The translations under genes were made by a program, and so were the position numbers. Below are positions 1-33,151 of a stretch of DNA of 64,000 nucleotides, one piece after another. Each line of letters opens with the position of its first letter. Within the stretch, counting starts at the first letter, position 1. The stretch is from Candidatus Levyibacteriota bacterium. GTDB taxonomy: Bacteria; Patescibacteriota; Microgenomatia; Levybacterales; UBA12049. The notes beneath the pieces are model-generated. The model was not told where the DNA came from and did no database searches. It saw only the letters and a list, made by a program, of their open reading frames with translations. Location: the NCBI GenBank assembly GCA_041906785.1, contig JAYRIM010000023.1:64019-128018 (forward strand), read 5' to 3'.

Positions 1-153
1 TTCGTCTGCAAATCCTATACCACAATCGACAATAAGAATTTCATCTTTATACTCGTAGACATAAAGATTTCTGGTGACATCTTCAATACCGCCTAGGGGG
101 ATAATTGAAACACTTTCTTCGTGGGGAATATTTTGTTGTTTGTTCTGATCCAT
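1..153 (-). CDS. rnj: Ribonuclease J (metallo-beta-lactamase/beta-CASP RNase), N-terminal fragment running off window start
   Basis: Reverse complement from ATG at 153..151 reads MDQNKQQNIPHEESVSIIPLGGIEDVTRNLYVYEYKDEILIVDCGIGFADE, matching the RNase J N-terminus (..ALGGLGEIGKN.Y....DEI.LID.GIKFPED). Missing from the ORF track because it is short and partial. Confidence 0.65.
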   Translation of the reverse strand, partial: MDQNKQQNIPHEESVSIIPLGGIEDVTRNLYVYEYKDEILIVDCGIGFADE

Positions 154-841: not shown

Positions 842-1978
842 TTACCAACTTGGAAGGAATTGTTTCACATTCTCTGCAGTGACACGAATAGGAGTAGAAG
901 CACCTTCGACAATTAATCTCGCAGCTTTACGACAAATACCAGATACTGTTCTTTCTAGGCTACGAATACCTGAATCATATCCTAATGGTCGGATGATTTG
1001 CATCCACAAATCCTCATCAATAGTAATATCGGTATCATTTAAGCCCATGTCGTCGCGAATACGTCTAAAAAGATAATTTTTTCCAATCGCCATTTTTTCT
1101 TCGTCAGTATATGAAGGCATTTGCAGTATTTGCATACGATCGAGAACAGCTGTTGAGACATTTGTGGTATTATTTCCTGTAGCAATAAATAGAACATTCG
1201 ACAGATCAAATGGATAGTCAATATAATGGTCTGTAAATGCTTTATTTTGTCCAGGATCTAAGAGTTCCAGTAATATACCCATAATATCCCCACGTGCGGC
1301 TTCTGTTACGCGATCAAGCTCATCAAGAAGAATAACAGGATTTCTGGTACCAGCATGAATGAGTTTTTTTATTACAGCACCTGGTTCTGCATCAGGAAAA
1401 GCTCGTGATTGTCCACGAATAACTCGCGAATCAGCCATTCCTCCGAACGGAATACGCTCAAATTGCCTACCAAGAGCTCTTGCAACGGAAATAGCTAATG
1501 TCGTTTTACCTGTACCAGCAAGTCCAACTAACATTAATACAGGCGCATGGCCAATAGATCTTCCTTTATTTCTTTGAAAGTTAAGAATAATTGTAGATAA
1601 ATATTCAAGAATCGCATTTTTAATATTTTCAATACCATAGTGATCCTCGTCGAGAACTTGTTTTGCTTTTTTGAGATCCAGAATATCTTGTGATTGTTTT
1701 TCCCAAGGCAAACTTGTTACCCAGTTAATATACGTCGAGGTACTTTCATATTCCGTAATATAGTTTGCGCTCATAAACCCTGATCCCTGTCGAATAAGCG
1801 CTAAACGAGCAACCCTATCAATAAGAATTTGTTTTATGTCTGCAGGCATTGGGGTTTGTTCAACTCTTTCGCCGAGTTTTCGTATCTGATCAGTAGAATT
1901 ATCAGTTAAACCTCCTTGTAATGGGGATGAAGCAGTAGTATCTTTTGGGGGAGATTGATCCATGGGTATATTATACAA
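842..1978 (-). CDS. Lon-family AAA+ ATPase module lacking both the N-terminal LON domain and the C-terminal serine protease domain
   Basis: LPWEKQSQDILDLKKAKQVLDEDHYGIENIKNAILEYL, then Walker A GLAGTGKTTLAISVARALGR, Walker B ILLDELDRV, and SGIRSLER (sensor-2). The ORF ends right after the AAA+ small domain (…ENVKQFLPSW*). No protease domain follows in any frame. Confidence 0.7.
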   Translation of the reverse strand: MYNIPMDQSPPKDTTASSPLQGGLTDNSTDQIRKLGERVEQTPMPADIKQILIDRVARLALIRQGSGFMSANYITEYESTSTYINWVTSLPWEKQSQDILDLKKAKQVLDEDHYGIENIKNAILEYLSTIILNFQRNKGRSIGHAPVLMLVGLAGTGKTTLAISVARALGRQFERIPFGGMADSRVIRGQSRAFPDAEPGAVIKKLIHAGTRNPVILLDELDRVTEAARGDIMGILLELLDPGQNKAFTDHYIDYPFDLSNVLFIATGNNTTNVSTAVLDRMQILQMPSYTDEEKMAIGKNYLFRRIRDDMGLNDTDITIDEDLWMQIIRPLGYDSGIRSLERTVSGICRKAARLIVEGASTPIRVTAENVKQFLPSW

Positions 1979-2123
1979 GAAGTATGAAAGGTATCAAATG
2001 TATCAAAAGTAAGGTGAAAGGGACAAATGAGACACAGGAGCCAAATGGGCCATAGGTTCTATCTATTTCTCTGATTTCCTTTGTCTCCTTTGACTCTTTG
2101 GTCCCTTCTGGTTCCTGATCTTT

Positions 2124-4490
2124 TCAATAGTGGGCTTTGCGGCCATATGATGGTTTTCGCTGCTGTGTTCTCTCACGCTGAAATTGTCTTGATAAAGGAT
2201 GTGCGCTGCGCATTCTATCATCTCGGTCAAATCCTCTTCTTTCACCACGATCAAAATTCTGTCGATCTCCTCTATCAAAACTTCTTCTTTCTCCTCGATC
2301 AAATCCTCTTCCTCGTCCTTGTGGTCGACTACTTCTTTCTGGGCGTTCTCTATTACCTGAATCTGACTCCCCAGAATCATCGAGTAACATAGTTAAATTA
2401 ATTCTTCCTTGGTCATCAATCTCAATAACTTTTACAGTCACTTTCTGACCTAAACTGACAACTTCTTCTGGATGGTTTACAAAACCTTTTGCCATTTTTG
2501 AAACATGAACCATGCCTTCTTTTCCTGGTAAGAATTCCACAAAAGCTCCAAAAGGCAAAATGCGTTTTACTTCACCTTCATATACCTCACCTGGTTTTAC
2601 TTCTTTTGTGATGCCTTGAACCATGTTTAAAGCACTCTGTACTGATTCTTCAGAAGTACCAGCAATAGTAACTGTACCATCATCTTCTACATCAACAGTT
2701 GCACCTGTCGTAGCGATAATATTTTTAATAATCTTTCCACCCGGACCGATCAGTTCACCAATCTTATCAACAGGAATTTGTAATAACTCTATCTTTGGTG
2801 CAAACTCAGAAACTTCATCACGTGATTGTGGAATAGCTTTTAACATTTTTTCAAGAATACTCATTCTTGCAACCCGAGCTCTTTCAAATATTTGTTCTAT
2901 CTGTTCAACTGTTAAACCTGGAATTTTGACATCAAGCTGTATAGCTGTTACACCTGTATCTGTTCCAGCCACTTTAAAGTCCATGTCACCTGAAAAATCT
3001 TCAAGACCGATGATATCTGTGAGCAATACATATTCTCCTTCTTTTGTGGATCCATGAGGATATGACATCATTCCTACAGAAATACCTGCAACTGGTTTCG
3101 TAATAGGTACTCCAGCATCCATTAATGCTAATGTCGAACCACATGTTGATGCCATTGATGTTGATCCGTTTGATGAAGTTACTTCAGAAACGAGGCGAAT
3201 TGTATAAGGGAATTTTTCTTTACTAGGTATAACGGCTTCGAGCGCACGTTCTGCAAGGGCACCATGCCCGATTTCACGTCGAGACGTAAAACCGACTCTC
3301 CCTGCTTCTCCTACAGAGTAAGGGGGCATTGAGTAATGATGGATATATCTTTTAGACTCTTCTCCTTCTGCTGACTCTATCAGCTGTTCCATTCTTGGGG
3401 ATCCGAGTGTAGCAATAGTAAGAACTTGTGTTAATCCTCTTTGAAATATCGCTGAGCCGTGTGTACGAGGGAGTACTCCTACCTGGATATCAATCTGACG
3501 AACTTCATCCATAGCACGACCATCAACTCTTTTATTCTTTTTAACAACATCAGAACGAATTCCTTGGAATAAGACATATTCCAATGCCTTTGCGATAATC
3601 TTAGAATCAATTTCACTTTCTGGGTTAGCCATTTTTTCCTGTTCATAAATTTTTTTGACTAGATCTTGTTCTTCTGTACCCCCGAACTCTTTATTTGCTT
3701 TCGCTTTTGCTAATGCCGTAACCTCATCTTTATATGCTTTTTCGATTCGCTTTGCCATTTCAGCCATCAGGGCATTTGGATAAACCTGTACCTTCTGTTG
3801 TCCAACTTTCCCAACCAAATCGATAATAAAATTCAAGACTTTGTCAGTTTCCTCATGTGCACGTTTAATCGCTTCAAGCATAATCTTTTCTGACACTTGT
3901 TTCGCGCCAGACTCAATCATGACTGTTTTTCCTTTTACCTGAGATACGACTAAATCTAAATCAGAATATGCCATTTCTGTGGCTGTAGGATTAATAATAT
4001 ATTGTCCTTCATCATTTTCACCACGAACATATCCTACGCGAACTGCTCCAATAGGGCCATTCCAAGGGATAGGAGATGTTGCTATTGCCGCTGACACTGC
4101 ATTTATTGCGAGGATATCTGGTGCATGTTCACCATCAACTGATAAAACAGTAACCATCACTTGTACTTCACGTTTAAATTCTTTTGGAAAAAGGGGTCTA
4201 ATTGAACGGTCTATTAAACGACCAATAAGGATAGCTTCGTCAGAAGGTCTGCCTTCACGTTTTACCCAACGACTTCCTTTTATACGCCCTCCAGCATACA
4301 AACGTTCGACATATTCAACTGAGAGAGGGAAATAATCGAGCTCTGTTTCTTTACCTAATACAACTGTAGCCAGAACCATGGTATCACCAATTCGTCCCAA
4401 TACAGAAGCTGTTGCTTGCGGTGCAAGCTTACCCGTTTCTAAGGTTAATGTTTTCCCTGCAAATTCTAACGTTTCTGAGGTCTTAGTCAT
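2124..4490 (-). CDS. pnp: Polynucleotide phosphorylase (PNPase) with an arginine-rich repetitive C-terminal tail
   Basis: Two RNase PH domains, KH and S1 domains across the full length. C-terminal ~80 aa is low complexity: GRGRGFDRGERRSFDRGDRQNFDRGERRGFDRDDR. Confidence 0.95.
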   Translation of the reverse strand: MTKTSETLEFAGKTLTLETGKLAPQATASVLGRIGDTMVLATVVLGKETELDYFPLSVEYVERLYAGGRIKGSRWVKREGRPSDEAILIGRLIDRSIRPLFPKEFKREVQVMVTVLSVDGEHAPDILAINAVSAAIATSPIPWNGPIGAVRVGYVRGENDEGQYIINPTATEMAYSDLDLVVSQVKGKTVMIESGAKQVSEKIMLEAIKRAHEETDKVLNFIIDLVGKVGQQKVQVYPNALMAEMAKRIEKAYKDEVTALAKAKANKEFGGTEEQDLVKKIYEQEKMANPESEIDSKIIAKALEYVLFQGIRSDVVKKNKRVDGRAMDEVRQIDIQVGVLPRTHGSAIFQRGLTQVLTIATLGSPRMEQLIESAEGEESKRYIHHYSMPPYSVGEAGRVGFTSRREIGHGALAERALEAVIPSKEKFPYTIRLVSEVTSSNGSTSMASTCGSTLALMDAGVPITKPVAGISVGMMSYPHGSTKEGEYVLLTDIIGLEDFSGDMDFKVAGTDTGVTAIQLDVKIPGLTVEQIEQIFERARVARMSILEKMLKAIPQSRDEVSEFAPKIELLQIPVDKIGELIGPGGKIIKNIIATTGATVDVEDDGTVTIAGTSEESVQSALNMVQGITKEVKPGEVYEGEVKRILPFGAFVEFLPGKEGMVHVSKMAKGFVNHPEEVVSLGQKVTVKVIEIDDQGRINLTMLLDDSGESDSGNRERPERSSRPQGRGRGFDRGERRSFDRGDRQNFDRGERRGFDRDDRMRSAHPLSRQFQRERTQQRKPSYGRKAHY

Positions 4491-4596
4491 TTAGTTTTTG
4501 TATATTCCTTTCGTTCATTGTATACGTGGAGGTTTGGAGTTAGTATACTCTTTCAATCTACACTACGTATTCATGAAATGTCAATTAATAAAAAGC

Positions 4597-4866
4597 TTAG
4601 TCTTTTAATCCAATTTTTTTTAATATTCCTGATGCTCGTTTATCGTCAACCTTCTTAAGAAAATTAACCAGTCTGCGTCTCTTCGCAATCATTGATAATA
4701 ATCCCCTTCTACTATGTGTATCATGTAAATGCTGCTTTAAATGCTCTGCAAGGCGATTTATTCTATGGGTCAATAATGCAATTTGAACTTCAGGACTTCC
4801 TGTATCTCCATCTACTGTCTGAAAATCTTTAATAATTTGTTGTTTTTGTGTTAGGCTCAATGGCAT
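4597..4866 (-). CDS. rpsO: 30S ribosomal protein S15
   Basis: 89 aa; LTHRINRLAEHLKQHLHDTHSRRGLLSMIAKRRRLVNFL is the canonical S15 signature. Sits immediately upstream of pnp, the classic rpsO-pnp arrangement. Confidence 0.95.
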   Translation of the reverse strand: MPLSLTQKQQIIKDFQTVDGDTGSPEVQIALLTHRINRLAEHLKQHLHDTHSRRGLLSMIAKRRRLVNFLKKVDDKRASGILKKIGLKD

Positions 4867-4931
4867 AGTCGTAATTATATCACAGAAAATCTGTTACCGG
4901 CAAGTAGGCAGACAGTTTAGCATATTTTTGC

Positions 4932-6065
4932 TTAAACGTTCGAAGATCCTTTATAGACTTTTGGCGTTAACCAATCAGTCGGAGGATTTATATCATCGAA
5001 ATTATTTTGCTGTTCCTGTGGTGGAAGAGTTACCTGCTGTAATTGTGGCTGTCTTTGCTGTACAGGCTGTTGTTGTGGTTGGGATTGCTGTTGATTTTGC
5101 TGAGCAGGTTGCTGCTGTTGGCGACGTTGATCAAACTGTGGTCTGCGATCCCTGTTATCATTTCTATCAGATTGACGTTGGTCGAATTGTCTTCTATCAC
5201 GATTATCTCGTTGCTGCTGAGACTGCTGTTGAGGTTGCTGTTGAACCACTGGGCGTTGTTGTTGAAAATTTCCTTGAGGTTGCGTCTGCGGTTGAGGTTG
5301 TCGCATTTGTTGTGTAGTTGTAGGCACTTGCTGAGTTCGTGAACGGACAGCTCCTTGTCTCATAAGAATACCTGCCATTTCAAAAGCTATGGGAGTTGTT
5401 CGTGGACTTTGGAAATTTTCTGTTCCATATGAAATACCATCAATAAGATTCTGAGCGATATCAACATCAAGTGGAGCTTTCAAGTCATTTAATACTTGAA
5501 CAATCTGTTCACTTACAGACGATGCTCGTGGATTTACAATAACAATATCGCCAAATCCTTGATTTTCTTGTTTATTATCGATGTTAACAAGTGTAACATT
5601 CTTTAACGCGTCAGGGCTAAATGCTGAATGAATATCTGCTAACCGTGGAGTACCAACCACAAAGAGTAAATCTAACTCACCATTTCCTCGGGTATAACGC
5701 ACATCTTGTTCACTGAATGTAAGGCCTTGGTCTCCAGCTTTAACGACAATATTCAGATACCCATTTTCGATCGTATATGATACTTTCTCGATGTCACCCT
5801 CACGATAGGGGAACGATACCACCAGATCAGCTCCTCCACCTTCATAACGAGTTTTTACTTTATCAACACCCACGAGGTTAGAGACTTCGACAATAGGTTC
5901 AGTAGCGGAAAGTACTGCAGTATTTTTACCCATAGCTTGGAGGGAGAGATAGAGAGAAAGAGCAGCAGCCATTTCATCAATTGAGGGCTCTTTACCCACT
6001 GCTACGGCTACTGATTTACTACGTTGTAGCGCTTCTTTTAGGCGCTGAAGTGTCGCATTGTCCAT
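4932..6065 (-). CDS. NrnA-like DHH/DHHA1-fold protein with degenerate catalytic motifs and a Gln/Pro/Arg-rich C-terminal tail
   Basis: Aligns to B. subtilis NrnA (LLFVVGTPRLADI ~ LVIVCDTANQERI; PRASSVSEQIVQVL ~ TSASSVSEMIYELY). DHH motif is IDNKQEN instead of IDHHPNE. The N-terminal DxD motif reads SID. No GGGH motif. Tail: QQQRDNRDRRQFDQRQSDRNDNRDRRPQFDQRRQQQQ… Occupies the infB/rpsO position where nrnA, rbfA and truB are often found. Confidence 0.6.
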   Translation of the reverse strand: MDNATLQRLKEALQRSKSVAVAVGKEPSIDEMAAALSLYLSLQAMGKNTAVLSATEPIVEVSNLVGVDKVKTRYEGGGADLVVSFPYREGDIEKVSYTIENGYLNIVVKAGDQGLTFSEQDVRYTRGNGELDLLFVVGTPRLADIHSAFSPDALKNVTLVNIDNKQENQGFGDIVIVNPRASSVSEQIVQVLNDLKAPLDVDIAQNLIDGISYGTENFQSPRTTPIAFEMAGILMRQGAVRSRTQQVPTTTQQMRQPQPQTQPQGNFQQQRPVVQQQPQQQSQQQRDNRDRRQFDQRQSDRNDNRDRRPQFDQRRQQQQPAQQNQQQSQPQQQPVQQRQPQLQQVTLPPQEQQNNFDDINPPTDWLTPKVYKGSSNV

Positions 6066-6090: not shown

Positions 6091-7551
6091 TTATGCGACT
6101 GATATTATCATATCTCCTATAGTAATGTCAAGCTGGTGAGACAAAACTATCCCTGCCTCACCTTTTGTTACTTTTGAAGTTACATTTTTACCTACTCTTA
6201 AGGATTGAATAGTAGTTTCTCCTATTACTGTGTCACCACGAAGAACACGTATTTTATCTCCACGAACGATTCTTCCTTCAATAATGGAAATTCCATAAGC
6301 AAATGTCTTTTCAAATGGAAACTTTGCAAGGATTTTTGCTTTTCCTAGTTCAGTCTCAAGCTGCATTTGTTTTTTACCTTCTATAACATCGGCTATCTCG
6401 TCAAGCATTTCATAGATAATCTGATAATTTTTAATTAATACCTTTTCAGCCAAGGCTAACCTTTGAACCTCGGGACGTATTTTTACATTAAAACTCAATG
6501 CTAGAGCACCTGTGGCTTTTGCCTGTAGAACGTCAGCCTCGGTTACCTCACCAGTTTTTTGTGTAACGATAGTCACTTCCTTCGGCAGTGCGGCTACAAT
6601 AGCCTCGAGTGCACCTTCAGTATCAGCTGCTAAAATAAGATAGAGCGTATCACCATCTTGAGGCTTATGATAGAGAACATCTTCTGGTTTTCTTTCAGCT
6701 TCCTTAGCTGAAACTGTAACTTCAGCTTGTTTGGGAGTCACTATGCTTCCAACAGGTAAAACATCAGGAGCGCCTAGAATTTCTACTCCTTCTCCTACTG
6801 AGGCTTTATCAATAGGTTTTCCAAGATAATTCAGTACTGTCCTTAACCTGAATGTTTTTCCTTCACATGATACTTCTTCTCGTGTATGTAAGGTTCCTTG
6901 CTTAATAATAATCGTAGATTTAGCACCAGCGCGTGGATCGAGCTTTGATTCAATAACAATAGCCTTCAAGGCAGCAGAAGAAGAAGCTTTTTGATGAACT
7001 CCCCGCAGTTCAGATACTAATAAAATAAGATCAAGTAATTCTTTCATATTCTCACCTTTTTTTGCAGATACTTCTATAACAGGAATATCGCCACCATATC
7101 CTTCAAGAAGTACATTTTCACGAAGGAGTTGTTGTTTCACTTTTTCTACGTTTTTCGTTGGTAAGTCACTCATAGTTAACACAACGATAATAGGAAGATT
7201 TGCTGATTGAAGTAATTTTATACTCTCTCGTGTCTGTGGCATTACACCATCGACAGCAGAAACAATCAATAATCCAATATCAGCAGCTTGTGCTCCACGA
7301 CTACGCATGTTAGTAAATGCTTCATGACCTGGAGTATCGATAAACGTTATACGTCTCTTTTTACCTTCGTATTCCACTTCAACAGAAGATGATCCAATTC
7401 CTTGTGTAATACCACCATACTCGCGTTGAGCAACTGAAGTTTTTCTTAGAGCATCTAAAAGAGTAGTTTTACCATGATCGACATGACCTAATACAGTTAC
7501 AACTGGAGGAAAATCCCAATTTGTTTTCTGCTCTATATGTGTATTCTGCAT
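6091..7551 (-). CDS. infB: Translation initiation factor IF-2, short form (G domain + domain II + C-terminal domain, no N-terminal extension)
   Basis: VVTVLGHVDHGKTTLLDALRKT, DTPGHEAF, NKxD-like TMSDL. 486 aa. Confidence 0.95.
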   Translation of the reverse strand: MQNTHIEQKTNWDFPPVVTVLGHVDHGKTTLLDALRKTSVAQREYGGITQGIGSSSVEVEYEGKKRRITFIDTPGHEAFTNMRSRGAQAADIGLLIVSAVDGVMPQTRESIKLLQSANLPIIVVLTMSDLPTKNVEKVKQQLLRENVLLEGYGGDIPVIEVSAKKGENMKELLDLILLVSELRGVHQKASSSAALKAIVIESKLDPRAGAKSTIIIKQGTLHTREEVSCEGKTFRLRTVLNYLGKPIDKASVGEGVEILGAPDVLPVGSIVTPKQAEVTVSAKEAERKPEDVLYHKPQDGDTLYLILAADTEGALEAIVAALPKEVTIVTQKTGEVTEADVLQAKATGALALSFNVKIRPEVQRLALAEKVLIKNYQIIYEMLDEIADVIEGKKQMQLETELGKAKILAKFPFEKTFAYGISIIEGRIVRGDKIRVLRGDTVIGETTIQSLRVGKNVTSKVTKGEAGIVLSHQLDITIGDMIISVA

Positions 7552-7585
7552 AATAATTCCTTCTTAAATGAAGCTTTCTACTGTA

Positions 7586-7674
7586 ATTTCCAATCACCAA
7601 TTGCAATTTTCGAATTAATTGACTAATTAACGAATTCATAATTAATTGGAAACTGGAAATTCGAGATTGGAAAC
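7586..7674. repeat. AT-rich imperfect inverted repeat (AATTTCCAATC … GATTGGAAA, with internal AATTAATT palindromes) in the nusA-infB intergenic region
   Basis: Outer arms are exact reverse complements (TTTCCAATC / GATTGGAAA). Three AATTAATT palindromic cores inside. Confidence 0.5.
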
Positions 7675-7698
7675 TCTCCTATCGAATTTCATAAATGA

Positions 7699-8919
7699 TT
7701 ACTTAGTCTCCTCAGTTGGCGTTTGCACATCATTCGAGGTTTCAACTGTTTCTTCAGGAGTCTCAACTGCTTCAGTAGTTTTTACTTCTTCGCTTGCCGT
7801 GGTCACATCTTGGGTATCATCTTGAGTTGTCTGCGATGATGAATCTGTTTGTACATCTGAAGATGTTGATTCCTTCGCTTCAGTTTCTTCAGCTGGCGCA
7901 GCGGCCTCCGCTTCTTTTGCTGCTCCGGGCTCCTCTTTTCCTTCAATCTCTATACGATATCCTGTTAATTTTGAAGCTATTCGAACATTTTGACCATCTT
8001 TTCCAATTGCCAATGATAATTCTTCTTTTGGAACTGAAACAACTGCAAGTTTTTCATCCTCTTTTAGCGTCACACTGATATTTTTCGCTGGGGACAATGC
8101 TTGTGTGATATATACTTTCGAATCTTCAGACCACTGGATGATATCAATCTTTTCAATGCCACCAAATTCTTGAATAATTGCTTGCACACGGACACCTTTT
8201 TGGCCAACACAACTTCCAACTGGATCAATTCCTTGCTGATTTGATGCAACGGCGATTTTCGTCCTATTTCCTGCTTCTCTCGCGATTGCTTTAACAATGA
8301 CACTACCTTGGGCAACTTCAGGTACTTCTCGACGGAATAATCCTTCAATAAGCCCTGCATGAGATCGAGAAACAACAATTTCTTCACCTTTTAATCCTTC
8401 TCTAATCTCCTTAAGATACACTGCAAATCGTTGATTTAAGTGATATTTCTCTTGGGAGATCTGCTCTGTCGGGGGCATAATAGCTTCTGTTTTTCCAATA
8501 TCAACAATAATATTTTGGCCAGCAAACCGTAGTACCATTCCATTGACGACTGTTCCAATTTTTACTCGATAATCTGAAAAAATTGCTTCTTTTTCCTTTT
8601 CACGAATTTTCTGCAAGATAACTTGTTTCGCAGTTTGCGCGGCAATTCTTCCAAATCCAGGAGGTGTTACATCTTCATCATTATGAAAGATTCTAGCTTC
8701 ACCTGTAGATGAATTAAGTTCTGCACGGTATTCTTCAACCTCAACTCCTGGATGATCCTTTCTATAAGCAGCGAGAATCGCGTTTTTTACAGTCTCTAAA
8801 ACAACATTTGGATCGACTCCTCGCTCGGAAGCAACCTGATTAAGAGCTAACACAAATTCTGATCTTTGTACAACTGGCATAGTAGGGTACAGTATAGCAA
8901 ATAAGCATGTTACGATCAA
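7699..8919 (-). CDS. nusA: Transcription termination/antitermination factor NusA with an acidic Thr/Glu-rich C-terminal tail
   Basis: N-terminal domain, S1 and two KH regions (GxxG: IGKDGQNVRIASKLTG). Likely true start at the internal MPVVQRSEF (about 8880). Tail AEETEAKESTSSDVQTDSSSQTTQDD…. Confidence 0.9.
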   Translation of the reverse strand: MIVTCLFAILYPTMPVVQRSEFVLALNQVASERGVDPNVVLETVKNAILAAYRKDHPGVEVEEYRAELNSSTGEARIFHNDEDVTPPGFGRIAAQTAKQVILQKIREKEKEAIFSDYRVKIGTVVNGMVLRFAGQNIIVDIGKTEAIMPPTEQISQEKYHLNQRFAVYLKEIREGLKGEEIVVSRSHAGLIEGLFRREVPEVAQGSVIVKAIAREAGNRTKIAVASNQQGIDPVGSCVGQKGVRVQAIIQEFGGIEKIDIIQWSEDSKVYITQALSPAKNISVTLKEDEKLAVVSVPKEELSLAIGKDGQNVRIASKLTGYRIEIEGKEEPGAAKEAEAAAPAEETEAKESTSSDVQTDSSSQTTQDDTQDVTTASEEVKTTEAVETPEETVETSNDVQTPTEETK

Positions 8920-8939: not shown

Positions 8940-9614
8940 CTATTTTTCCTTTTTAAATAACTTATATTGTTGAAGAAGAAGAAAAAGAGCTGGCAATAAC
9001 AGAAGATAGAGAAAACCTACCGAACTACTGTGTTTAACTATATATTTATATGTAACATCACTAAAATAATAGAGAGCGATATTTGGCAGCTCAGAAAGTG
9101 CTGTCGCAAAGAAAAATATTCTAAAATTAATCTTACTTAGCCCTGCGATATAACTAATGAAATCCATAATAGGCGCTGTTGTCAAACGAATTCCCAAAAA
9201 TGCTAGAAATTCTTTTTTCCTTGAAACCTTTTCTTCCCAGGCATGTAATTGTTGGAGAGGTACAAAACGTGAAACTAATGGTTTTCGATATACTCGAGCA
9301 ATCCAAAAAGCTATCGATGCACCGATAATAATTCCTAAAAATGCGAATATATAAGACCACAACCATCCATAAATAGGAATTAATAAAAATGATAATATAC
9401 CCCCTGGAATGGGAGGAATAACTACTGCGAGGATACGCCAAATAATTACAATGATGGGAGCGAGAATAACGTGCGCAATTGCAAAAGCCACGATTTGTTC
9501 TTGATTTGCAGGAAACCAAAAAAGAAAAAAAATAATAAGCAAAGAAGTTATGAGAAAAGATATATTAATAAGTCCTCGGGATTTCATAGTAGTATTATCG
9601 GAGAACAAAGGCAT
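8940..9614 (-). CDS. DedA/TVP38/TMEM64-family membrane protein
   Basis: Multi-TM protein with the VIPPIPGG motif characteristic of the DedA/SNARE-associated family. Start overlaps the stop of the upstream ClpB-like gene (TAATG). Confidence 0.65.
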   Translation of the reverse strand: MPLFSDNTTMKSRGLINISFLITSLLIIFFLFWFPANQEQIVAFAIAHVILAPIIVIIWRILAVVIPPIPGGILSFLLIPIYGWLWSYIFAFLGIIIGASIAFWIARVYRKPLVSRFVPLQQLHAWEEKVSRKKEFLAFLGIRLTTAPIMDFISYIAGLSKINFRIFFFATALSELPNIALYYFSDVTYKYIVKHSSSVGFLYLLLLPALFLLLQQYKLFKKEK

Positions 9615-12187
9615 TATTGTACAGCAACTATAATAGTATTCCCTTCATCAGTCGTCATCGTAAGGGTATTACCACGTTGTATCTCATCACGAAGTTTTTT
9701 CTGTGCAATAATATCCTCAACAGTGTCCTGAATATATCGTCGTAAAGGACGAGCACCGAACTGTTGATTAAAGCCTTCTTTCATAACTTTATTAAGAAGT
9801 CTATCATCGTACGAAAATGTTATATCCTGTTCGGCCAATCGCTTTTTAATACCATCTAACATAATTCGTGCTATGGAGCCCATTTCTGCTTCTCCTAAAG
9901 GCTTAAAGATAATAACATCGTCAAATCTATTCAATAATTCAGGTCTAAATAAACCCTTTTTCTGCAATTCATCAAGTAATCTATTCGAAAATTCATCTGT
10001 GACAGCAGAACCCTTTTCAATCTCCTCACGAATAAATTCTGCTCCCGCGTTTGATGTAGCAATAACAATACTGCTCGCAAAACTTACTGTTCGCCCTTTA
10101 TTATCTGTCAATCGTCCATCTTCAAGTACTTGCAAGAATAAATCAAGAATTTTAGGATGCGCTTTTTCAAATTCGTCAAGAAGTACTAAAGAAAATGGAT
10201 GATCTGCAATTTTATCTGTTAGTTCACCCCGCTCTTGTCCTTCACCAGGAGGAGCCCCAAGTAGTCTTTTTTCTCCTTCTATATCTGAATATTCACTCAT
10301 ATCAAGACGTATCATTTTATCTTCTCCACCGAAATAAAGTTCTGCTAACGCTTTCGCTGTTTCTGTTTTACCTACGCCTGTTGGGCCAAGGAAGAGGAAT
10401 GAGATAGGCCGTTTCATTGTGGTCATCCCCGCACGTAATCTTCGCATCGCTTCTGCTATAGCACGAATAGCATCCTCCTGTGCAATAACTCGCTTGTGCA
10501 TCAATTCTTCAAGGTGTAGCAGTATATCTTTTTCTTTCGCCGTGGGTTGGGATATAACAATGTGCGTTTTTTCTTGTATTGCGGTAACAATATCATCACC
10601 TCCAACAAATACTGTTTTCGTCTTACTAAACAAACCGCCAGCACCATGACTACGTGATGCAACAGTGTGGGAAACATCTTCTAAAACATTTACAGCACTT
10701 CCAGGTAATGCAGCTTCCTGGAAAAATCTATCGGCGTAATCTACTGCATTTTCAATTGCTTTGTAAGTCAACACAACTCTATTTTTTTCTTCAACTGCCG
10801 ATGCCCTTTCGAGAACCATTTTCATAGCTGTATGTTTATCTGGCTCTTCTAACTTAATAACAGTAAATGCTTCGAGCAATGAACTTTTTTCAATAAATGT
10901 TTTAAAATTACCTACCGTGACTGTCCCAATAACAGGCGTTTTTCCGGAAGTTAGATAAGGATATAGTGCACCAGATAAATCAATTTCGTAGGATGACGAT
11001 CCTGTAATGTTCTGTAATTCAGGAATGTATATCACTACATTTCCTGAGTGACTAACTTCTTCAATGATGGCTTGTAAACGACTTTCTAATTCTGCACGAT
11101 TTGCAGCGCCTGCGATGAGAGGACCTACCATAAGCTCAAGAACCTTAATATGAGGAACGCTTAATGATGTACTGTGAAGAAAGCTTTCTGTTGCCAATAA
11201 AGATACAAGATTTTCTCTACCACTACCTGGATCACCAACTAAGAGTATACTATTATTTTCTCGTTTAGAAAGAGTCTCAAGCATCTGTATAAATTCTTTT
11301 TCCCTACCAGTAATTTCTGGTTTCTTTTCAAATGCTTCATAAGAAAAATTTACAGTATATTTTTTCGTCTCATATGTCCATCCAGTTGTGAGTCCTTCAC
11401 CAATTCCACTACCATACATATGAACACGGCGTTTTTTCGGTTTTTCCTCATAAGGATACATATGTCTTGCCCAAGAAAGAATTTGCATAAGTTCTTCTTG
11501 TTTCAGTTGATGATTGAAAAGCAATTTGGTTTGTTGTTCTGTTAAAAAAAGATACGATCCGAATATATCAATTGAAGTTATATATGTTCCGCGAACACTT
11601 TTCGCTAGTTCGGCTGCATAGGTTATAACCTGTGTTAATGGAATATCTAGCAGCTGTATCGATTGCTTTTCAACTGGAATTTTATTCATTATGAATTGGA
11701 CTTGTTCATAATCCAGTAAGGAATATACAACTTGTTTTGTATTCTGATATACCAAAATTTTTTCTAATGCCTCTCGAGTCATCGATTCATACCAATTTTG
11801 ATCTTTATTATTTACTACTGAAATAACGGGTAAAACCTTTGCTATTTTATGCCTAAAGAAAAGCTCGATCTGTAAAGTAACAGAAAGGAAAAAAAGTGGA
11901 AGTTTTATATTTCCATGTTCACGAAATGTATTAAAAAACCAAACAGAAATGAAAAAAAGAACAACGACTCGTAATGTTCTCATAAGCGCTGTCTTATAAA
12001 AGTGATAAATCTTTGTATACGCCACCATATTTAAAAATGTATAAAAAGCTGAACGATAGTTACAACAGGCCAGGCCAGAAATAAAAGGAGAAATGCAATT
12101 TGAAATATTAGGATAACTGATAATAAAAGGAAACTGATAAGGATAAGTAATGTTTTTATACCTATTCCCATTCCTATTGAAAACCAA
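9614..12187 (-). CDS. Membrane-anchored ClpB/ClpC-like double-AAA+ protein with a degenerate first Walker A and no M-domain
   Basis: N-terminus from MRTLRVVVLFFISVWFF (probable start near 11983) has about 2 TM helices. NBD1 Walker A reads GDPGSGRE instead of GxxGxGKT. NBD2 is intact: GPTGVGKTETAKALAE, LVLLDEFEKAHP, sensor RPELLNRFDDVIIF. No IGF/LGF ClpP loop. Confidence 0.75.
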   Translation of the reverse strand: MVFNRNGNRYKNITYPYQFPFIISYPNISNCISPFISGLACCNYRSAFYTFLNMVAYTKIYHFYKTALMRTLRVVVLFFISVWFFNTFREHGNIKLPLFFLSVTLQIELFFRHKIAKVLPVISVVNNKDQNWYESMTREALEKILVYQNTKQVVYSLLDYEQVQFIMNKIPVEKQSIQLLDIPLTQVITYAAELAKSVRGTYITSIDIFGSYLFLTEQQTKLLFNHQLKQEELMQILSWARHMYPYEEKPKKRRVHMYGSGIGEGLTTGWTYETKKYTVNFSYEAFEKKPEITGREKEFIQMLETLSKRENNSILLVGDPGSGRENLVSLLATESFLHSTSLSVPHIKVLELMVGPLIAGAANRAELESRLQAIIEEVSHSGNVVIYIPELQNITGSSSYEIDLSGALYPYLTSGKTPVIGTVTVGNFKTFIEKSSLLEAFTVIKLEEPDKHTAMKMVLERASAVEEKNRVVLTYKAIENAVDYADRFFQEAALPGSAVNVLEDVSHTVASRSHGAGGLFSKTKTVFVGGDDIVTAIQEKTHIVISQPTAKEKDILLHLEELMHKRVIAQEDAIRAIAEAMRRLRAGMTTMKRPISFLFLGPTGVGKTETAKALAELYFGGEDKMIRLDMSEYSDIEGEKRLLGAPPGEGQERGELTDKIADHPFSLVLLDEFEKAHPKILDLFLQVLEDGRLTDNKGRTVSFASSIVIATSNAGAEFIREEIEKGSAVTDEFSNRLLDELQKKGLFRPELLNRFDDVIIFKPLGEAEMGSIARIMLDGIKKRLAEQDITFSYDDRLLNKVMKEGFNQQFGARPLRRYIQDTVEDIIAQKKLRDEIQRGNTLTMTTDEGNTIIVAVQ

Positions 12188-12996: not shown

Positions 12997-13321
12997 GGCT
13001 ATTTAGAAAAGAAGAAATAATGGAAAGAAGGACACTAAATAATAAAGCCCACCAAAAAGAGTTTACTCGAAATCCTTCAATAAGAAGGTCTGTAAGAGAA
13101 ATCATTAATGCATTGAGAACAAGCGCAAAAACACCCAATGTAACCAATGTTATGGGGAGTGTTAGGAAAAACAGAATTGGCTTAATTGAGGCGTTAATAA
13201 TGCCTAATACCAATGCAACAATTAAAGCAGTTACAAACGAATCAACATACACTCCTGGTAATAAATATGCCGCAACGAAAACAGCCATTCCACTTATAAA
13301 CCAGTTAATTAATATTTTCAT
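12983..13321 (-). CDS. DUF360 / phage-holin-4-superfamily small membrane protein
   Basis: 112 aa, about 3-4 TM, with GMAVFVAAYLLPGVYVDSFVTALIVALVLGIINASIKPIL matching the DUF360 (YvlD/YqxA-like) pattern. Its ATG overlaps the ClpC-NBD2 stop as ATGA. Confidence 0.6.
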   Translation of the reverse strand: MKILINWFISGMAVFVAAYLLPGVYVDSFVTALIVALVLGIINASIKPILFFLTLPITLVTLGVFALVLNALMISLTDLLIEGFRVNSFWWALLFSVLLSIISSFLNSLAKD

Positions 13322-14979
13322 GATGATTCATGTAATCCATCTACACCTGAAGCATTTATTTCCCCATTTTCTAGTACAGAAACATGAGCTTGTTCGTTCG
13401 CATAGTTTTGTGAGCCTAGACCTACTGTAGCACTTGTTCCTCCTGCCACATATGCTCCACCTGAAGCATAGTTTGGCGGCGGAGTACCTTGAATGAATTG
13501 ATTTGTAAATGATTGATTAGTTTGCACAGATGGCTCATCAGACGGATTTATAGAAGGTGTTGCTGTTGGGTGAGTCGAATCTGGAGACAAAACACTTAAA
13601 GGATCAAAAGATGTCGCTACTGTAGGCGCTGATTGGCCCGTCGAAGGAACTGTCTGCTGTCCATAAACATAAGGTTGCTGTGATAACTGTGGCGTTTGAG
13701 TACTAGAAACTTGAGGTTGAGTATGCTGATCAGGTTGGTCTGTTGTTGGCTGAACCGTGGGGTTGTTTGTCTCCAAAGTAGCTTGAGCTGGCTGTTTTCC
13801 ACCTTCAGGTTTTTTAAACAAGAATTGGTTTGTTCTCGTGTCGTAATCTATCACAATAGTATCTCCTTGAACAAATTGTTTCCCGATGATTTGCAGCGCT
13901 ATTGGATTTTCTATAGATGTCTGGATTAACCTGCGCAACGGACGAGCACCGTACATTGGGTCATAACCTTCTTGTGCAAGCTTATTTAATGCTCTATCGG
14001 TTACTTTTACTGCAAATCCTTGTTCTTTTAATAATTTTGCAGTTTTTTCAAGACCTCGTTTCGCAATACCTACCATATCAGATCTCTGCAGTGGTTTAAA
14101 AATAACAATATCATCATAACGATTAAGTAATTCTGGCCGGAAAAATTTCCGTAGTTCAGTATTAACGACTGTTGATAGTTCAGCAAAATCTTTTTCATAT
14201 TGTTCTTTTGATTTTTCTTTTTTCGCATCTTGTTCACCTAATTTTTCAGTGATCATACCACTACCTATATTAGATGTACAAATGACTATAGTGTTTTTAA
14301 AGGATATCGTATTTCCTTTATTATCAGTTAAACGTCCGTCTTCTAAAAGCTGTAACAGAATATTAAAAACATCAGGATGTGCTTTTTCAACTTCATCAAG
14401 AAGGACTATTGAATATGGTTTCGCTCGAACTGCTTCGGTTAATTGTCCACCTTCTTCATATCCTACATACCCAGGAGGAGCGCCTATTAACTTAGCCACT
14501 TCATGTTTTTCCATATACTCTGACATATCTAAACGAACCATTGCATCATCACGTCCGAATAAAATTTCAGCAAGAGTTTTTGCTAATTCTGTCTTTCCTG
14601 TTCCGGAAGGTCCTAAAAATATAAAAGAGGCAATAGGTCTCTGTCCGCTTGCTAAACCAATTCTGCCACGGCGTACTGCTTCTGCAACTTTAACCACTGC
14701 TTCTTCCTGATCAACAAGTCGAAGATGGATTCTATCTTCAAGTTGCAAGAGTTTTGCGCTTTCATCCTCTGTCAACTTAGAAATTGGTATCCCTGTCCAA
14801 CTACTTACCACATTTTCAACATCACGCTTTGTAACAGCCATGCTATTTTCAACAGGTTCTGGTGTAGTTTGCTTACTCGGTGTAGGTGTACCAGGAGCAG
14901 CAGAAACTGGCTGGACTTCTGTCGCTTGTTGTTTTTCTTCTTTTACATTTACTGTATTTTGGGTATTTTTATCGTTCAT
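13318..14979 (-). CDS. clpC: ClpC/ClpA-type chaperone, C-terminal half (NBD2/D2 AAA+ module) as a separate ORF with a Gln/Thr/Pro-rich C-terminal tail
   Basis: Begins MNDKNTQ…VTKRDVENVVSSWTGIPISKL (canonical D2 start). Walker A GPSGTGKTELAKTLAE, Walker B IVLLDEVEKAHPDVFNILLQLLEDGRLTD, sensor-2 RPELLNRYDDIVIFKPL. No [LIV]G[FL] ClpP-docking loop. Long PTVQPTTDQPDQHTQPQVSSTQTPQ tail. Confidence 0.85.
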   Translation of the reverse strand: MNDKNTQNTVNVKEEKQQATEVQPVSAAPGTPTPSKQTTPEPVENSMAVTKRDVENVVSSWTGIPISKLTEDESAKLLQLEDRIHLRLVDQEEAVVKVAEAVRRGRIGLASGQRPIASFIFLGPSGTGKTELAKTLAEILFGRDDAMVRLDMSEYMEKHEVAKLIGAPPGYVGYEEGGQLTEAVRAKPYSIVLLDEVEKAHPDVFNILLQLLEDGRLTDNKGNTISFKNTIVICTSNIGSGMITEKLGEQDAKKEKSKEQYEKDFAELSTVVNTELRKFFRPELLNRYDDIVIFKPLQRSDMVGIAKRGLEKTAKLLKEQGFAVKVTDRALNKLAQEGYDPMYGARPLRRLIQTSIENPIALQIIGKQFVQGDTIVIDYDTRTNQFLFKKPEGGKQPAQATLETNNPTVQPTTDQPDQHTQPQVSSTQTPQLSQQPYVYGQQTVPSTGQSAPTVATSFDPLSVLSPDSTHPTATPSINPSDEPSVQTNQSFTNQFIQGTPPPNYASGGAYVAGGTSATVGLGSQNYANEQAHVSVLENGEINASGVDGLHESS

Positions 14980-31933: not shown

Positions 31934-33120
31934 AAGATTTCTACTCATATCTACATACTCAATTAGCAGATAAAACCGTTCCTACAGTCGAATCAGGCCA
32001 AGGAGCTTATTTAACAATTAATGGCAAGAAAAAGCTGAATCTTTGCTCAAATAATTATCTTGGATTTGCTGCAGATGAAAGATTAAAAAAAGCTGCTATA
32101 AAAGCAATCGAACAATATGGGGTAGGTACAGGTTCTGTACGTGCTTTATCAGGAACAAATACGCTACATATACAACTTGAGGATGCACTTGCGAAGTTCA
32201 AATATGCAGAAGGATGTATCGTTCTCACAGGAGGGTATATGGCAAATCTTGCAGCAATTCAAACGCTTATTGGGAAAGAAGATATAGTTATTTCGGATGA
32301 GTTAAATCATGCTTCTATTATTGACGCCATTCGGTTATCTGCAGTGAAAAACAAATTTATCTATAAACATGCCGATATGACCGACTTGGAGAGCAAACTG
32401 CAGGAAGCAAATAAAGTAGCACAGAATCCGAAATCAGATGGTCAACAGCCACTCATGTTACTTGTTACGGACGGTGTTTTTTCGATGGATGGTGATCTCG
32501 CACCATTACCACAAATTGTGACTTTAGCGAAACAATATAATGCAGTTACTATGGTTGACGATGCTCATGGTGAAGGTGTTCTTGGTACTCATGGACGTGG
32601 TATTGTTGATCATTTTAACCTTCACGGACAAATAGATATTGAAGTGGGAACATTATCGAAAGCATTTGGCGTCATGGGAGGATTTATTACTGGGAAAAAA
32701 GACCTTATTACATTTTACCGGCAAAAAGCTCGACAGTTTCTTTTCTCGAATGGATTATCTATTCCTGATACAGCCGCACTATTAGAGTCAGTTACTATTC
32801 TTGCAGAGTCTGACGAAGAAGTTAAAAAATTATGGAATAATGCGAAGTATATAAAAGAAAATCTTATTGCAGCGGGTTTTGATTGTGGAAAGTCAGAGAC
32901 GCCAATAACACCTGTTATGTTAGGTAACGAGGATACTGCCAAAAACTTTAGTGCAAAATTACTTGAACATGATGTATTCGCGACACCTATTGTATTTCCA
33001 ATGGTTCCAAAAGGGAAAGCCCGTATTCGTGTTATGCCTTCATCATCTCACGAGTTGAAGGATTTAGATTTCGGAATATCTATATTTAAAAAAGTTGCAC
33101 AGGATATGCAGATACTTTAG
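31930..33120 (+). CDS. kbl: 2-amino-3-ketobutyrate CoA ligase (glycine C-acetyltransferase)
   Basis: Full-length PLP-dependent aminotransferase class-II fold: [11 protein letters not shown]…[17 protein letters not shown]…[11 protein letters not shown]…VDDAHGEG…TLSKAF. ATG at 31930 overlaps the tdh stop (ATGA). The track ORF starts further upstream at 31906. Confidence 0.85.
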
Positions 33121-33151
33121 CCTCAATTTCTGCTATAATAAACCTCATCGT

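What the first reader, a model, noticed from the sequence alone, without database searches (positions are those of the whole stretch)
2124..6065. Arginine-rich RG/RD-repeat and Q-rich disordered tails on two RNA-decay proteins in an RNA-turnover gene cluster
PNPase ends with GRGRGFDRGERRSFDRGDRQNFDRGERRGFDRDDR. The NrnA-like protein ends with QQQRDNRDRRQFDQRQSDRNDNRDRRPQFDQRRQQQQ plus a long Q/P tract. Repeated FDRG(E/D)RR and RDRRQFDQR units resemble RGG/RS-like RNA-binding or condensate-forming regions, comparable to the RNase E scaffold. Both genes sit in an RNase J fragment-pnp-rpsO-nrnA-like-infB-nusA block, with RNase Y at the other end of the window. The tails could be the interaction/scaffold elements of a degradosome-like assembly in an organism with no RNase E in view. 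Antisense ORFs over these tails (2063..2392, 5043..5342) are compositional artefacts.
Basis: partly seen in the sequence, partly recalled or inferred. Interest (0 to 1): 0.6.

Follow-up and report, generated by a model that had tools for sequence, protein, structure and literature searches.

The report
Conserved docking tails on RNA-decay proteins
In a tiny-genome groundwater-type bacterium (Levybacteria), the RNA-degrading enzyme PNPase and a neighbouring, catalytically dead relative of a small-RNA nuclease each carry a floppy tail that ends in a short peptide kept almost unchanged across hundreds of relatives. This is the design other bacteria use to tie RNA-decay machines together, but the binding partners here are unknown.

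Summary
Both tails are real, translated, predicted disordered and present in every relative examined. They sit in variable linkers.

- **PNPase:** the conserved elements are H-P-L-S-R-Q-F-x-R-E (a predicted short helix) plus a basic, aromatic C-terminal end.
- **DHH protein:** the conserved element is PP-x-DWL-x-PK-[VI]-YKGS at the extreme C-terminus.
- **Selection:** synonymous codons vary freely under these invariant residues, so selection acts on the protein.
- **"NrnA-like" label:** the protein has an NrnA-type DHH fold but lacks DHHA1 and four of the seven catalytic residues (the two His and two of the five Asp), in all 76 complete members checked. It is a pseudo-enzyme.
- **Gene order:** nusA-infB-dhh-rpsO-pnp-(Lon-like AAA+)-rnj is conserved in about 80 Levybacteria genomes and in more distant relatives. 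RNase Y lies 58 kb away and is not linked.
- **Motif distribution:** neither motif was found in another cellular protein family or in the PDB. A few small mobile-element proteins end in the DHH-type motif.

Best reading: linker-plus-docking-peptide modules of an RNase E-independent RNA-decay or translation-coupled assembly, with the dead DHH protein as adaptor. The partners are inferred, not shown.

The parts
2388..4490 (-). PNPase catalytic core plus KH and S1 domains (residues 1-701)
   Evidence: Pfam RNase_PH x2, RNase_PH_C, KH_1, S1. NCBIfam PRK11824 878 bits over residues 7-701. The AlphaFold model is confident over this range.
2202..2387 (-). PNPase disordered linker (residues 702-763), R/G/D/S-rich, with four FDRG(E/D)RR-type units
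   Evidence: pLDDT below 50 for residues 706-764. A 24-nt tandem repeat lies at 2213-2311. In homologues the linker is 23-91 aa and R/G/D-rich, with net charge about +1 and no conserved sequence, but aromatic residues sit in an RRx[FY]xRR context.
2169..2201 (-). Conserved PNPase tail motif HPLSRQFQRER (residues 764-774), predicted amphipathic Arg-rich helix
   Evidence: H764, P765, L766 and R772 are invariant, and Q769, F770 and E773 are at least 90% conserved in 60 sequences. The motif is present in all 120 best homologues. A helix is predicted at 765-777 with pLDDT 54-60 and is not docked. Synonymous codons vary freely.
2127..2168 (-). Basic, aromatic C-terminal end of PNPase (TQQRKPSYGRKAHY)
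   Evidence: In homologues this segment is 9-32 aa with median net charge +6, ending in RKAHY, KKRFSR or KKPRY. Divergent relatives end in KKDFSR.
4597..4866 (-). rpsO (ribosomal protein S15), between the two tailed genes
   Evidence: Pfam Ribosomal_S15, 7.6e-30. Its position is conserved in related loci.
5346..6065 (-). Degenerate DHH domain (residues 1-240) of the 'NrnA-like' protein, a pseudo-enzyme
   Evidence: AlphaFold pLDDT is above 90. The best Foldseek PDB hits are TM1595, Rv2837c and NrnA, E about 1e-13, aligned over about 235 columns only. A profile search against PDB gives 7e-10. Catalytic motifs are lost: I DxD to SxD, II D to G138, III DHH to D163-N-K, IV D to G214, and this holds in all 76 complete family members.
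4986..5345 (-). Q/P/R-rich disordered linker of the DHH-like protein (residues 241-360), including the duplicated RDNRDRRQFDQR units (about 5121-5210)
   Evidence: pLDDT is about 44-56. Linker length varies from about 35 to 166 aa among the 120 best homologues, with composition Q 25%, P 14%, R 9%. Divergent relatives have much shorter linkers.
4935..4985 (-). Conserved C-terminal peptide PPTDWLTPKVYKGSSNV (residues 361-377)
   Evidence: D364, W365, L366, P368, K369, Y371 and G373 are invariant in 62 sequences. The peptide is present in 116 of 120 homologues, and the other 4 look truncated. It is present in relatives down to 28% domain identity. Synonymous codons vary freely. It is not docked on its own domain in the model.
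842..1978 (-). Lon-like AAA+ ATPase without N-domain or protease domain, conserved downstream of pnp
   Evidence: Pfam AAA and Lon_lid. It matches TIGR00763 positions 247-569 of 795 only. It is syntenic in most related loci.
1..153 (-). First 51 codons of RNase J (the gene runs off the window)
   Evidence: Translation matches the 567-aa RNase J on the source contig, with Lactamase_B, RNase_J_b_CASP and RNase_J_C domains. rnj follows pnp or the Lon-like gene on the same strand in 53 of 80 loci. It has no disordered tail.
6091..8919 (-). infB (6091-7551, short 486-aa IF2) and nusA (7699-8919, acidic tail), upstream members of the conserved array
   Evidence: Pfam hits. Synteny. The NusA tail is 0-100 aa in relatives, is acidic or mixed, and has no conserved end. 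It serves as an internal control for a non-conserved tail.

Best explanation
Both tails are functional 'flexible linker plus terminal docking element' modules, not simple repeats.

**PNPase tail.** It has three parts: (i) a variable Arg/Gly/Asp linker studded with Arg-flanked aromatic residues, (ii) a conserved amphipathic Arg-rich helix (HPLSRQFxRER), and (iii) a strongly basic, aromatic C-terminal end. Together these most likely supply in cis the RNA-capturing, multivalent Arg-rich function that RNase E's non-catalytic region supplies in trans in Proteobacteria. They may also provide a specific contact through the helix.

**DHH protein.** The neighbouring gene descends from NrnA. It has lost the DHHA1 domain and the catalytic residues, and keeps an invariant C-terminal Trp/Tyr peptide at the end of a variable Q/P-rich linker. 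It most likely acts as a non-catalytic adaptor. Its folded head (probably dimeric, as in NrnA) holds one partner or itself, while the tail peptide docks on another component encoded in or near the same operon. Candidate partners are PNPase, RNase J, the Lon-like AAA+ ATPase, or IF2/the ribosome.

**What is shown:** the tails are real, disordered, lineage-wide and under protein-level selection, the terminal motifs are the conserved parts, the enzyme is dead, and synteny is conserved.

**What is inferred:** RNA binding, the identity of the partners, and degradosome-like assembly.
For: - **Tails in all relatives:**
- **Invariant residues with free synonymous variation:**
- **Disorder with a helical motif:**
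- **Control tail:** the NusA tail in the same genomes is not conserved.
- **Pseudo-enzyme status:**. The defining NrnA features come from PMC9757072.
- **Synteny:** the order nusA-infB-dhh-rpsO-pnp-lonAAA-rnj is kept in 80 Levybacteria loci and in divergent metagenome loci.
- **DHH peptide is older than the linker:** it is retained at 28-40% domain identity while the linker shrinks to about 40-60 aa.
- **PNPase tail skeleton recurs:** divergent relatives keep H..(S/T)..F followed by KKxFxR, as GPHFPTSRFL..KKDFSR.
- **Arg/aromatic grammar of the linker:**
- **Precedents for a terminal peptide recruiting PNPase:**
Against: - No interaction, RNA-binding or localisation data exist.
- AlphaFold did not dock either motif on its own protein, and complexes could not be modelled.
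- The DHH peptide is more widely conserved than the HPL motif of PNPase, so these two elements are unlikely to be each other's specific partners.
- Q/P-rich disordered segments also occur in unrelated proteins of the window, the split ClpB halves, so part of the linker composition may be a genome-wide habit.
- The gene sits directly after infB, so a role in translation or ribosome biogenesis rather than RNA decay is equally compatible with synteny.
- Whether the genome lacks RNase E is unknown.
Confidence: 0.45

Rival explanations
1. The tails are purely RNA-binding extensions. The PNPase tail, and perhaps the R-rich parts of the DHH tail, bind RNA non-specifically to raise affinity or processivity, and there is no protein-protein scaffolding.
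For: The PNPase tail is 25% Arg with net charge +8. Its terminal segment has median charge +6 in homologues. The conserved helix is Arg-rich. Divergent relatives keep at least a short R-rich aromatic end.
Against: A non-specific polycation would not need invariant H764, P765, L766 and F770. The DHH peptide (DWLxPKxYKGS) is not basic and looks like a protein-docking peptide. The linker itself is nearly charge-neutral.
Confidence: 0.22
2. The DHH-like protein is a translation or ribosome-biogenesis factor. Its peptide docks on IF2 or the 30S subunit, compensating for the truncated IF2 N-terminus or the absent rbfA in this operon, and has nothing to do with RNA decay.
For: The gene always directly follows infB (25-nt gap here) and precedes rpsO. 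IF2 is only 486 aa. From general knowledge, nusA-infB-rbfA-nrnA is a common actinobacterial order, so the position is ancestral to the translation operon.
Against: There is no direct evidence. The same array also holds pnp and rnj. This reading does not explain the PNPase tail.
Confidence: 0.15
3. The terminal motifs are recognition tags for AAA+ machines, namely the Lon-like ATPase encoded downstream or Clp, and control turnover or remodelling of the two proteins.
For: A Lon-like AAA+ gene lacking the protease and N-domains is conserved right after pnp. The motifs are at the extreme C-termini, and the DHH peptide usually ends in a hydrophobic residue.
Against: Degrons are rarely this long or this strictly conserved. 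The Lon-like protein has no protease domain. Some loci lack the Lon-like gene but keep the tails.
Confidence: 0.08
4. The tails are neutral low-complexity expansions produced by replication slippage in an AT-rich small genome, with no function.
For: Repeat units and linker lengths vary widely and are lineage-specific. The NusA tail in the same genomes behaves this way. Other Q/P-rich segments occur in the window.
Against: This reading is rejected for the tails as a whole. The termini are invariant at the amino-acid level with saturated synonymous variation across more than 100 assemblies, and no relative lacks a tail.
Confidence: 0.07

Closest known systems
RNase E non-catalytic C-terminal scaffold (E. 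coli, Caulobacter and cyanobacterial RNA degradosome; BR-bodies)
   Same: It is a long disordered region with Arg-rich RNA-binding segments and short conserved peptides. The PNPase-recruiting peptide lies at or near the extreme C-terminus: Caulobacter ...PPEKPRRGWWRR (PMC3376730) and cyanobacterial RRRRRRSSA (PMC3964918). The design is linker plus terminal peptide, and the DHH peptide likewise contains Trp.
   Different: Here the disordered modules sit on PNPase itself and on a dead DHH protein, not on an endonuclease. There is no sequence similarity to any RNase E microdomain. No interaction has been shown, and no membrane-targeting or helicase-binding segments were seen.
NrnA / stand-alone DHH-DHHA1 phosphoesterases (B. 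subtilis NrnA, M. tuberculosis CnpB/Rv2837c, T. maritima TM1595)
   Same: The DHH fold is shared: the best structural and profile matches have E about 1e-13 and 7e-10. From general knowledge, the position in the nusA-infB operon neighbourhood resembles that in Actinobacteria.
   Different: There is no DHHA1 domain and no GGGH motif. Motif II Asp, motif III His-His and motif IV Asp are all replaced family-wide. The equivalents of the residues mutated in inactive TM1595 (D80N/D154N) and NrnA (D80N/D156N, PMC9757072) are naturally Gly or Ala. The protein adds a disordered linker and a conserved C-terminal peptide.
Linker-plus-tip hubs such as the SSB C-terminal tail (disordered linker plus DDDIPF tip) and the FtsZ C-terminal linker plus conserved C-terminal peptide (general knowledge)
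   Same: The architecture matches: a folded oligomeric core, a linker of variable length and composition, and an invariant terminal peptide that recruits partners.
   Different: The proteins and motifs are unrelated, and the partners here are unknown.
RG/RGG-rich C-terminal extensions of RNA enzymes, for example bacterial DEAD-box helicases such as RhlE and eukaryotic RGG boxes (general knowledge)
   Same: Both have Arg/Gly-rich disordered sequence with interspersed aromatic residues attached to an RNA-handling enzyme, and a plausible RNA-binding or condensate-promoting grammar.
   Different: The window's tail has GRGRG but no RGG triplet. It is rich in Asp/Glu, so the linker is nearly neutral. 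It also ends in a specific conserved helix and terminus, which RGG boxes lack.

Membership tests
Polynucleotide phosphorylase (PNPase) | Two RNase PH domains plus KH and S1 domains, scoring above the equivalog cut-off | tested here: met
   Pfam RNase_PH (2 stretches), RNase_PH_C, KH_1 and S1. NCBIfam PRK11824 scores 878.5 bits against a cutoff of 471, and TIGR03591 scores 873.5 against 525.
NrnA / DHH-DHHA1 phosphoesterase | DHH domain fold | tested here: met
   Foldseek against PDB: TM1595, Rv2837c and NrnA at E 1e-13 to 1e-10. Profile against PDB: 7.4e-10. The single sequence is below the Pfam DHH cutoff (17.9 against 28.1 bits).
NrnA / DHH-DHHA1 phosphoesterase | C-terminal DHHA1 domain with GGGH motif (PMC9757072) | tested here: not met
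   There is no Pfam DHHA1 hit even at E=10. Residues 241-377 are disordered. Structural alignments cover only about 235 of about 320 target residues. The sequence contains no GGGH.
NrnA / DHH-DHHA1 phosphoesterase | Catalytic motifs I (DxD), II (D), III (DHH) and IV (D) | tested here: not met
   The window protein has S28-x-D30, G138, D163-N164-K165 and G214. Across 76 complete family members, motif II is Gly in 72, motif III never has His-His, and motif IV is Ala or Gly in 70.
RNase E-type degradosome scaffold | Disordered region with conserved microdomains that bind defined partners (PNPase, helicase, enolase) and Arg-rich RNA-binding segments | tested here: inconclusive
   Disordered regions with conserved terminal motifs and an Arg-rich segment are present. 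Partner binding is not testable with these tools. No RNase E catalytic domain is attached, so this is an analogy and not membership.
RGG/RG box | Clustered RGG or RG repeats (di- or tri-RGG within a few residues) | tested here: not met
   The window tail has one GRGRG and no RGG triplet. Some homologues do have RGG clusters. The composition is R/G/D rather than R/G.
RNase J | Metallo-beta-lactamase, beta-CASP and RNase J C-terminal domains | tested here: met
   The full gene on the source contig has Lactamase_B, RNase_J_b_CASP and RNase_J_C. The window holds only its first 51 codons.
RNase Y | RNase_Y_N coiled coil, KH and HD domains, with an N-terminal membrane anchor in the B. subtilis type | tested here: inconclusive
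   TIGR03319 scores 456.4 bits against a cutoff of 454.35, matching profile positions 99-510 only. No N-terminal hydrophobic helix is present in the ORF.

The most novel reading that the evidence does not exclude
A broad group of Candidate Phyla Radiation bacteria (Levybacteria and related Microgenomates) organises RNA decay without an RNase E scaffold. A dedicated pseudo-enzyme, an NrnA-derived dead DHH protein, would use an invariant C-terminal Trp/Tyr peptide to tether PNPase, RNase J or the Lon-like AAA+ ATPase, while PNPase carries its own Arg/aromatic condensate-prone tail. Mobile elements would encode small proteins ending in the same peptide (L186, L130, L180) to hijack or block that docking site.
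Probability: 0.15. Interest if true: 0.85.

Novelty: new variant of a known kind. Interest (0 to 1): 0.6.

Why it matters
How bacteria without an RNase E scaffold coordinate RNA decay is only partly understood, and almost nothing is known for the uncultured, reduced-genome CPR bacteria.

This locus offers two short, invariant and easily synthesised peptides, plus a conserved pseudo-enzyme, as concrete handles for pull-downs, complex prediction and in-vitro assays. That makes the question directly testable.

It also adds a clear example of a nuclease turned into a non-catalytic adaptor. It shows as well that in low-complexity tails the conserved terminal motif, not the eye-catching repeat, is the part to study.

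Tried and rejected
1. **Sequencing or frameshift artefact, or untranslated tails.** Rejected. More than 100 independent assemblies keep the frame and the motifs.
2. **Conservation caused by an overlapping RNA element.** Rejected. Synonymous sites vary freely and Rfam finds nothing in the window.
3. **A conserved pnp leader hairpin as target of the Arg-rich helix.** The rpsO-pnp spacer ranges from 3 to 233 nt with no common structure, so this was dropped.
4. **The same motifs on other proteins.**
   - There are none elsewhere in the window.
   - The PNPase-tail profile against 1.84 billion representatives returned only PNPase C-terminal fragments plus one chance eukaryotic repeat protein.
   - The DHH-peptide profile search returned only short C-terminal fragments. 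That word-index search was clearly insensitive, with only 58 candidates.
   - Neither motif matches any PDB chain.
5. **Self-docking of the motifs.** Not seen in the AlphaFold monomer models.
6. **Co-variation of PNPase end types with DHH end types.** No pattern beyond phylogeny.
7. **My first reading that the 'RNase J fragment' was a misnamed Lon-like gene.** This was wrong. The fragment is at 1-153.
8. **Literature.** Searches for CPR degradosomes, PNPase tails or DHH pseudo-enzymes found nothing relevant.

Full report
**What is there.** The stretch 2124-6065 holds three co-directional genes on the minus strand.
- pnp is at 2124-4490 and encodes 788 aa.
- rpsO is at 4597-4866.
- A 377-aa gene is at 4932-6065.
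- infB (6091-7551) and nusA (7699-8919) lie upstream.
- A Lon-like AAA+ gene (842-1978), an opposite-strand ORF (242-841) and the first 51 codons of RNase J (1-153) lie downstream.

PNPase is a full member of its family (878 bits, residues 7-701), followed by an 87-residue tail. The best homologues of both proteins are from Candidatus Levybacteria/Levyibacteriota in the Candidate Phyla Radiation. RNase Y is real but lies 58 kb away, at 62353-63660. The genes in between encode chaperones, tRNA synthetases, cell-wall enzymes and metabolic enzymes. It is therefore not part of a cluster.

- The FDRG(E/D)RR units form a 24-nt tandem repeat, 4.1 copies, at 2213-2311.
- The PNPase tail is 25% Arg with net charge +8. 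The second tail is 35% Gln.
- AlphaFold gives pLDDT 33-60 for both tails and above 85-90 for the folded parts.
- Neither protein ends with the quoted repeats. PNPase ends in ...SAHPLSRQFQRERTQQRKPSYGRKAHY and the other protein in ...NPPTDWLTPKVYKGSSNV.

**What is conserved.** All 120 best PNPase homologues (63-82% identity, 734-820 aa) carry a tail with the same three-part plan.
1. A linker of 23-91 aa, R/G/D/P/S-rich, with net charge about +1 and no conserved sequence.
2. A motif H-P-L-(S/A/T)-x-Q-(F/L)-x-R-(E/Q). H764, P765, L766 and R772 are invariant, and Q769, F770 and E773 are at least 90% conserved.
3. A 9-32 aa end with median charge +6, terminating in RKAHY, KKRFSR or KKPRY.

Only 10 of the 109 linkers that matched a strict motif pattern contain two or more FDR units. 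On average each linker has 3.1 aromatic residues, and Arg is enriched 2-2.5-fold at positions -3, -2, +2 and +3 of each one. The motif is predicted as a short helix (765-777, pLDDT 54-60), not packed against the core.

For the second protein, 116 of the 120 best homologues end in PP-x-D-W-L-x-P-K-(V/I)-Y-K-G-S-x-x-(V/I/L/F). D364, W365, L366, P368, K369, Y371 and G373 are invariant, and the other four homologues look truncated. The preceding linker varies from about 35 to 166 residues (Q 25%, P 14%, R 9%).

In 80 loci from named genomes the motifs are again present, apart from minor variants and masked or truncated genes. At every invariant residue all synonymous codons are used: six Leu codons, four Pro codons, four Gly codons. 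Selection therefore acts on the peptide, not on DNA or RNA. The NusA tail in the same genomes is a useful contrast. It is 0-100 residues long, acidic or mixed, and has no conserved end.

**The 'NrnA-like' protein is a pseudo-enzyme.**
- The single sequence fails Pfam DHH (17.9 bits against a cutoff of 28.1) and has no DHHA1 hit.
- A family profile finds NrnA-type DHH-DHHA1 enzymes in the PDB (TM1595, S. aureus NrnA, Rv2837c; E down to 7e-10).
- The confident AlphaFold model of residues 1-240 matches the same structures (E about 1e-13), but only over the DHH domain and linker helix.
- The profile alignments show motif I DxD as S-x-D, motif II Asp as Gly138, motif III D-H-H as D163-N-K, and motif IV Asp as Gly214.
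- The equivalents of the Asp residues whose mutation inactivates TM1595 (D80N/D154N, PDB titles) and B. subtilis NrnA (D80N/D156N; PMC9757072) are naturally absent.
- In 76 complete family members, down to 28% identity, motif II is Gly in 72, no sequence has His-His, and motif IV is Ala or Gly in 70.

The residues that are invariant cluster instead in a beta-hairpin region, SFPY..E..IEKVSYT...LNI. That region is a candidate binding surface.

**Distribution and synteny.**
- A scan of one genome per species found 136 relatives. All informative record titles say Levybacteria, Levyibacteriota, Microgenomates or Patescibacteria.
- In all 80 loci kept, the order is (clpB)-nusA-infB-dhh-rpsO-pnp-(lonAAA), as far as the contigs reach.
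- RNase J follows on the same strand in 53 of them.
Most encode DHH-like proteins. Many of these are divergent (28-40% identity) with short linkers, a total length of about 280-330 aa, the same C-terminal peptide and the same gene order.

The terminal peptide is therefore old and widespread, while the long Q-rich linker is a local expansion. PNPases in those divergent loci also have basic tails. Some end in SGPHFPTSR(F/L)L...KKDF(S/G)R, which shares the H..(S/T)..F and KKxFxR skeleton with the Levybacterial motif. Others end in short R-rich aromatic tails.

**Who else carries the motifs.**
- There are none elsewhere in the window.
- The PNPase-tail profile against 1.84 billion representatives found only PNPase C-terminal fragments and one chance hit in a eukaryote-like repeat protein.
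- The DHH-peptide search found only short C-terminal fragments and was evidently insensitive.
- Neither motif matches any PDB chain.

The metagenome scan did reveal a few small non-DHH proteins that end in DWLTPKVYKG followed by an acidic tail. One is in L186, next to RadC-like and Erf-like genes, and a frameshifted paralogue there ends in EWFTPRVYKGNKEEE. The others are in L130 and L180. This suggests, but does not prove, that the peptide is a portable docking motif.

**Mechanism.** The anatomy is a folded core, a linker of variable length, and an invariant terminal element under protein-level selection. This is the signature of tethered docking modules. RNase E recruits PNPase in the same way, through a peptide at or near its extreme C-terminus in Caulobacter (…PRRGWWRR) and cyanobacteria (RRRRRRSSA).

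I therefore favour the following model, at about 45% for the whole package.
- The PNPase tail supplies Arg-rich, multivalent RNA capture in cis, plus a specific helix contact.
- The dead DHH protein is an adaptor whose tail peptide docks on a partner from the same array: PNPase, RNase J, the Lon-like ATPase, or IF2/the ribosome.

That the tails are functional tethers is well supported. That they build a degradosome-like assembly is inference. The rival readings are RNA binding only, a translation-factor role, AAA+ recognition tags, and neutral expansion. The last is excluded for the termini but remains plausible for the exact repeats.

**Novelty.** The literature searches found no description of tailed CPR PNPases, of this DHH pseudo-enzyme family or of a CPR degradosome. 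The principle of a disordered region plus a short docking motif on RNA-decay proteins is known. Its placement on PNPase itself and on a dedicated pseudo-nuclease is a new variant.

Noticed in passing
window 842-1978 (-): A Lon-like AAA+ ATPase that matches only Lon positions 247-569. It has no N-terminal substrate domain and no S16 protease domain. It is conserved between pnp and rnj in most related loci and may be part of the same functional unit.
   Followed up: partly
L186 451-696 (-) and 2963-3245 (-); L130 2507-2800 (-); L180 405-551 (-): Small non-DHH proteins that end in DWLTPKVYKG (or EWFTPRVYKG) followed by an acidic tail. In L186 they sit next to RadC-like and Erf-like genes, in a mobile-element-like context. 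This may be mimicry of the DHH-protein docking peptide.
   Followed up: partly
L128, L133, L142, L143, L163, L171, L182, L185, L197 (PNPase C-termini): Divergent relatives have PNPase tails ending in SGPHFPTSR(F/L)L..KKDF(S/G)R instead of HPLSRQFQRER..KKRFSR. Other relatives have only short R-rich aromatic ends.
   Followed up: partly
window 7699-8919 (-), residues about 319-406: NusA has an 80-residue acidic Glu/Thr/Ser-rich tail. In relatives this tail is 0-100 aa and has no conserved end, so it is an evolutionarily labile tail, unlike the two studied here.
   Followed up: yes
window 13318-14979 (-) and 14982-16628 (-): A ClpB/ClpC-like chaperone appears split into two adjacent ORFs: Clp_N plus the first AAA module, then the second AAA module plus D2-small. 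Each carries a Q/P-rich disordered segment. A separate 857-aa ClpB-like gene lies at 9614-12187.
   Followed up: no
window 62353-63660 (-): RNase Y matches the family profile only from position 99 and has no N-terminal hydrophobic anchor in its ORF. It may be a soluble RNase Y.
   Followed up: partly
window 6091-7551 (-): IF2 is only 486 aa (G domain onward) and lacks the long N-terminal region of most bacterial IF2 proteins. The DHH-like gene starts 25 nt after it.
   Followed up: no
window 33095-36120 (+) and 37142-38374 (+): An ATP-citrate-lyase-like gene pair (Citrate_bind/ATP-grasp, then CoA-ligase/citrate-synthase domains) and an HMGL-like/homocitrate-synthase-like gene. This is unusual metabolic content for a CPR genome.
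   Followed up: no
window 39861-42182 (+): A class I lysyl-tRNA synthetase fused to a C-terminal B3/4 domain, 773 aa in total.
   Followed up: no
window 38393-39883 (-), 45523-47043 (-), 47099-48592 (-): Three ORFs of about 500 aa with no Pfam match at E<=1e-5.
   Followed up: no
DHH-like linkers in homologues (P0024-P0068; L114, L128, L133, L143 and others): The linkers carry lineage-specific secondary motifs. (D/E)RRQQFDQRR occurs in close relatives, and the window has two copies. NE(E/D)RVS(S/T)FMPE occurs in 16 of 120 homologues. FPPGSIPG occurs in the divergent short-linker group.
   Followed up: partly
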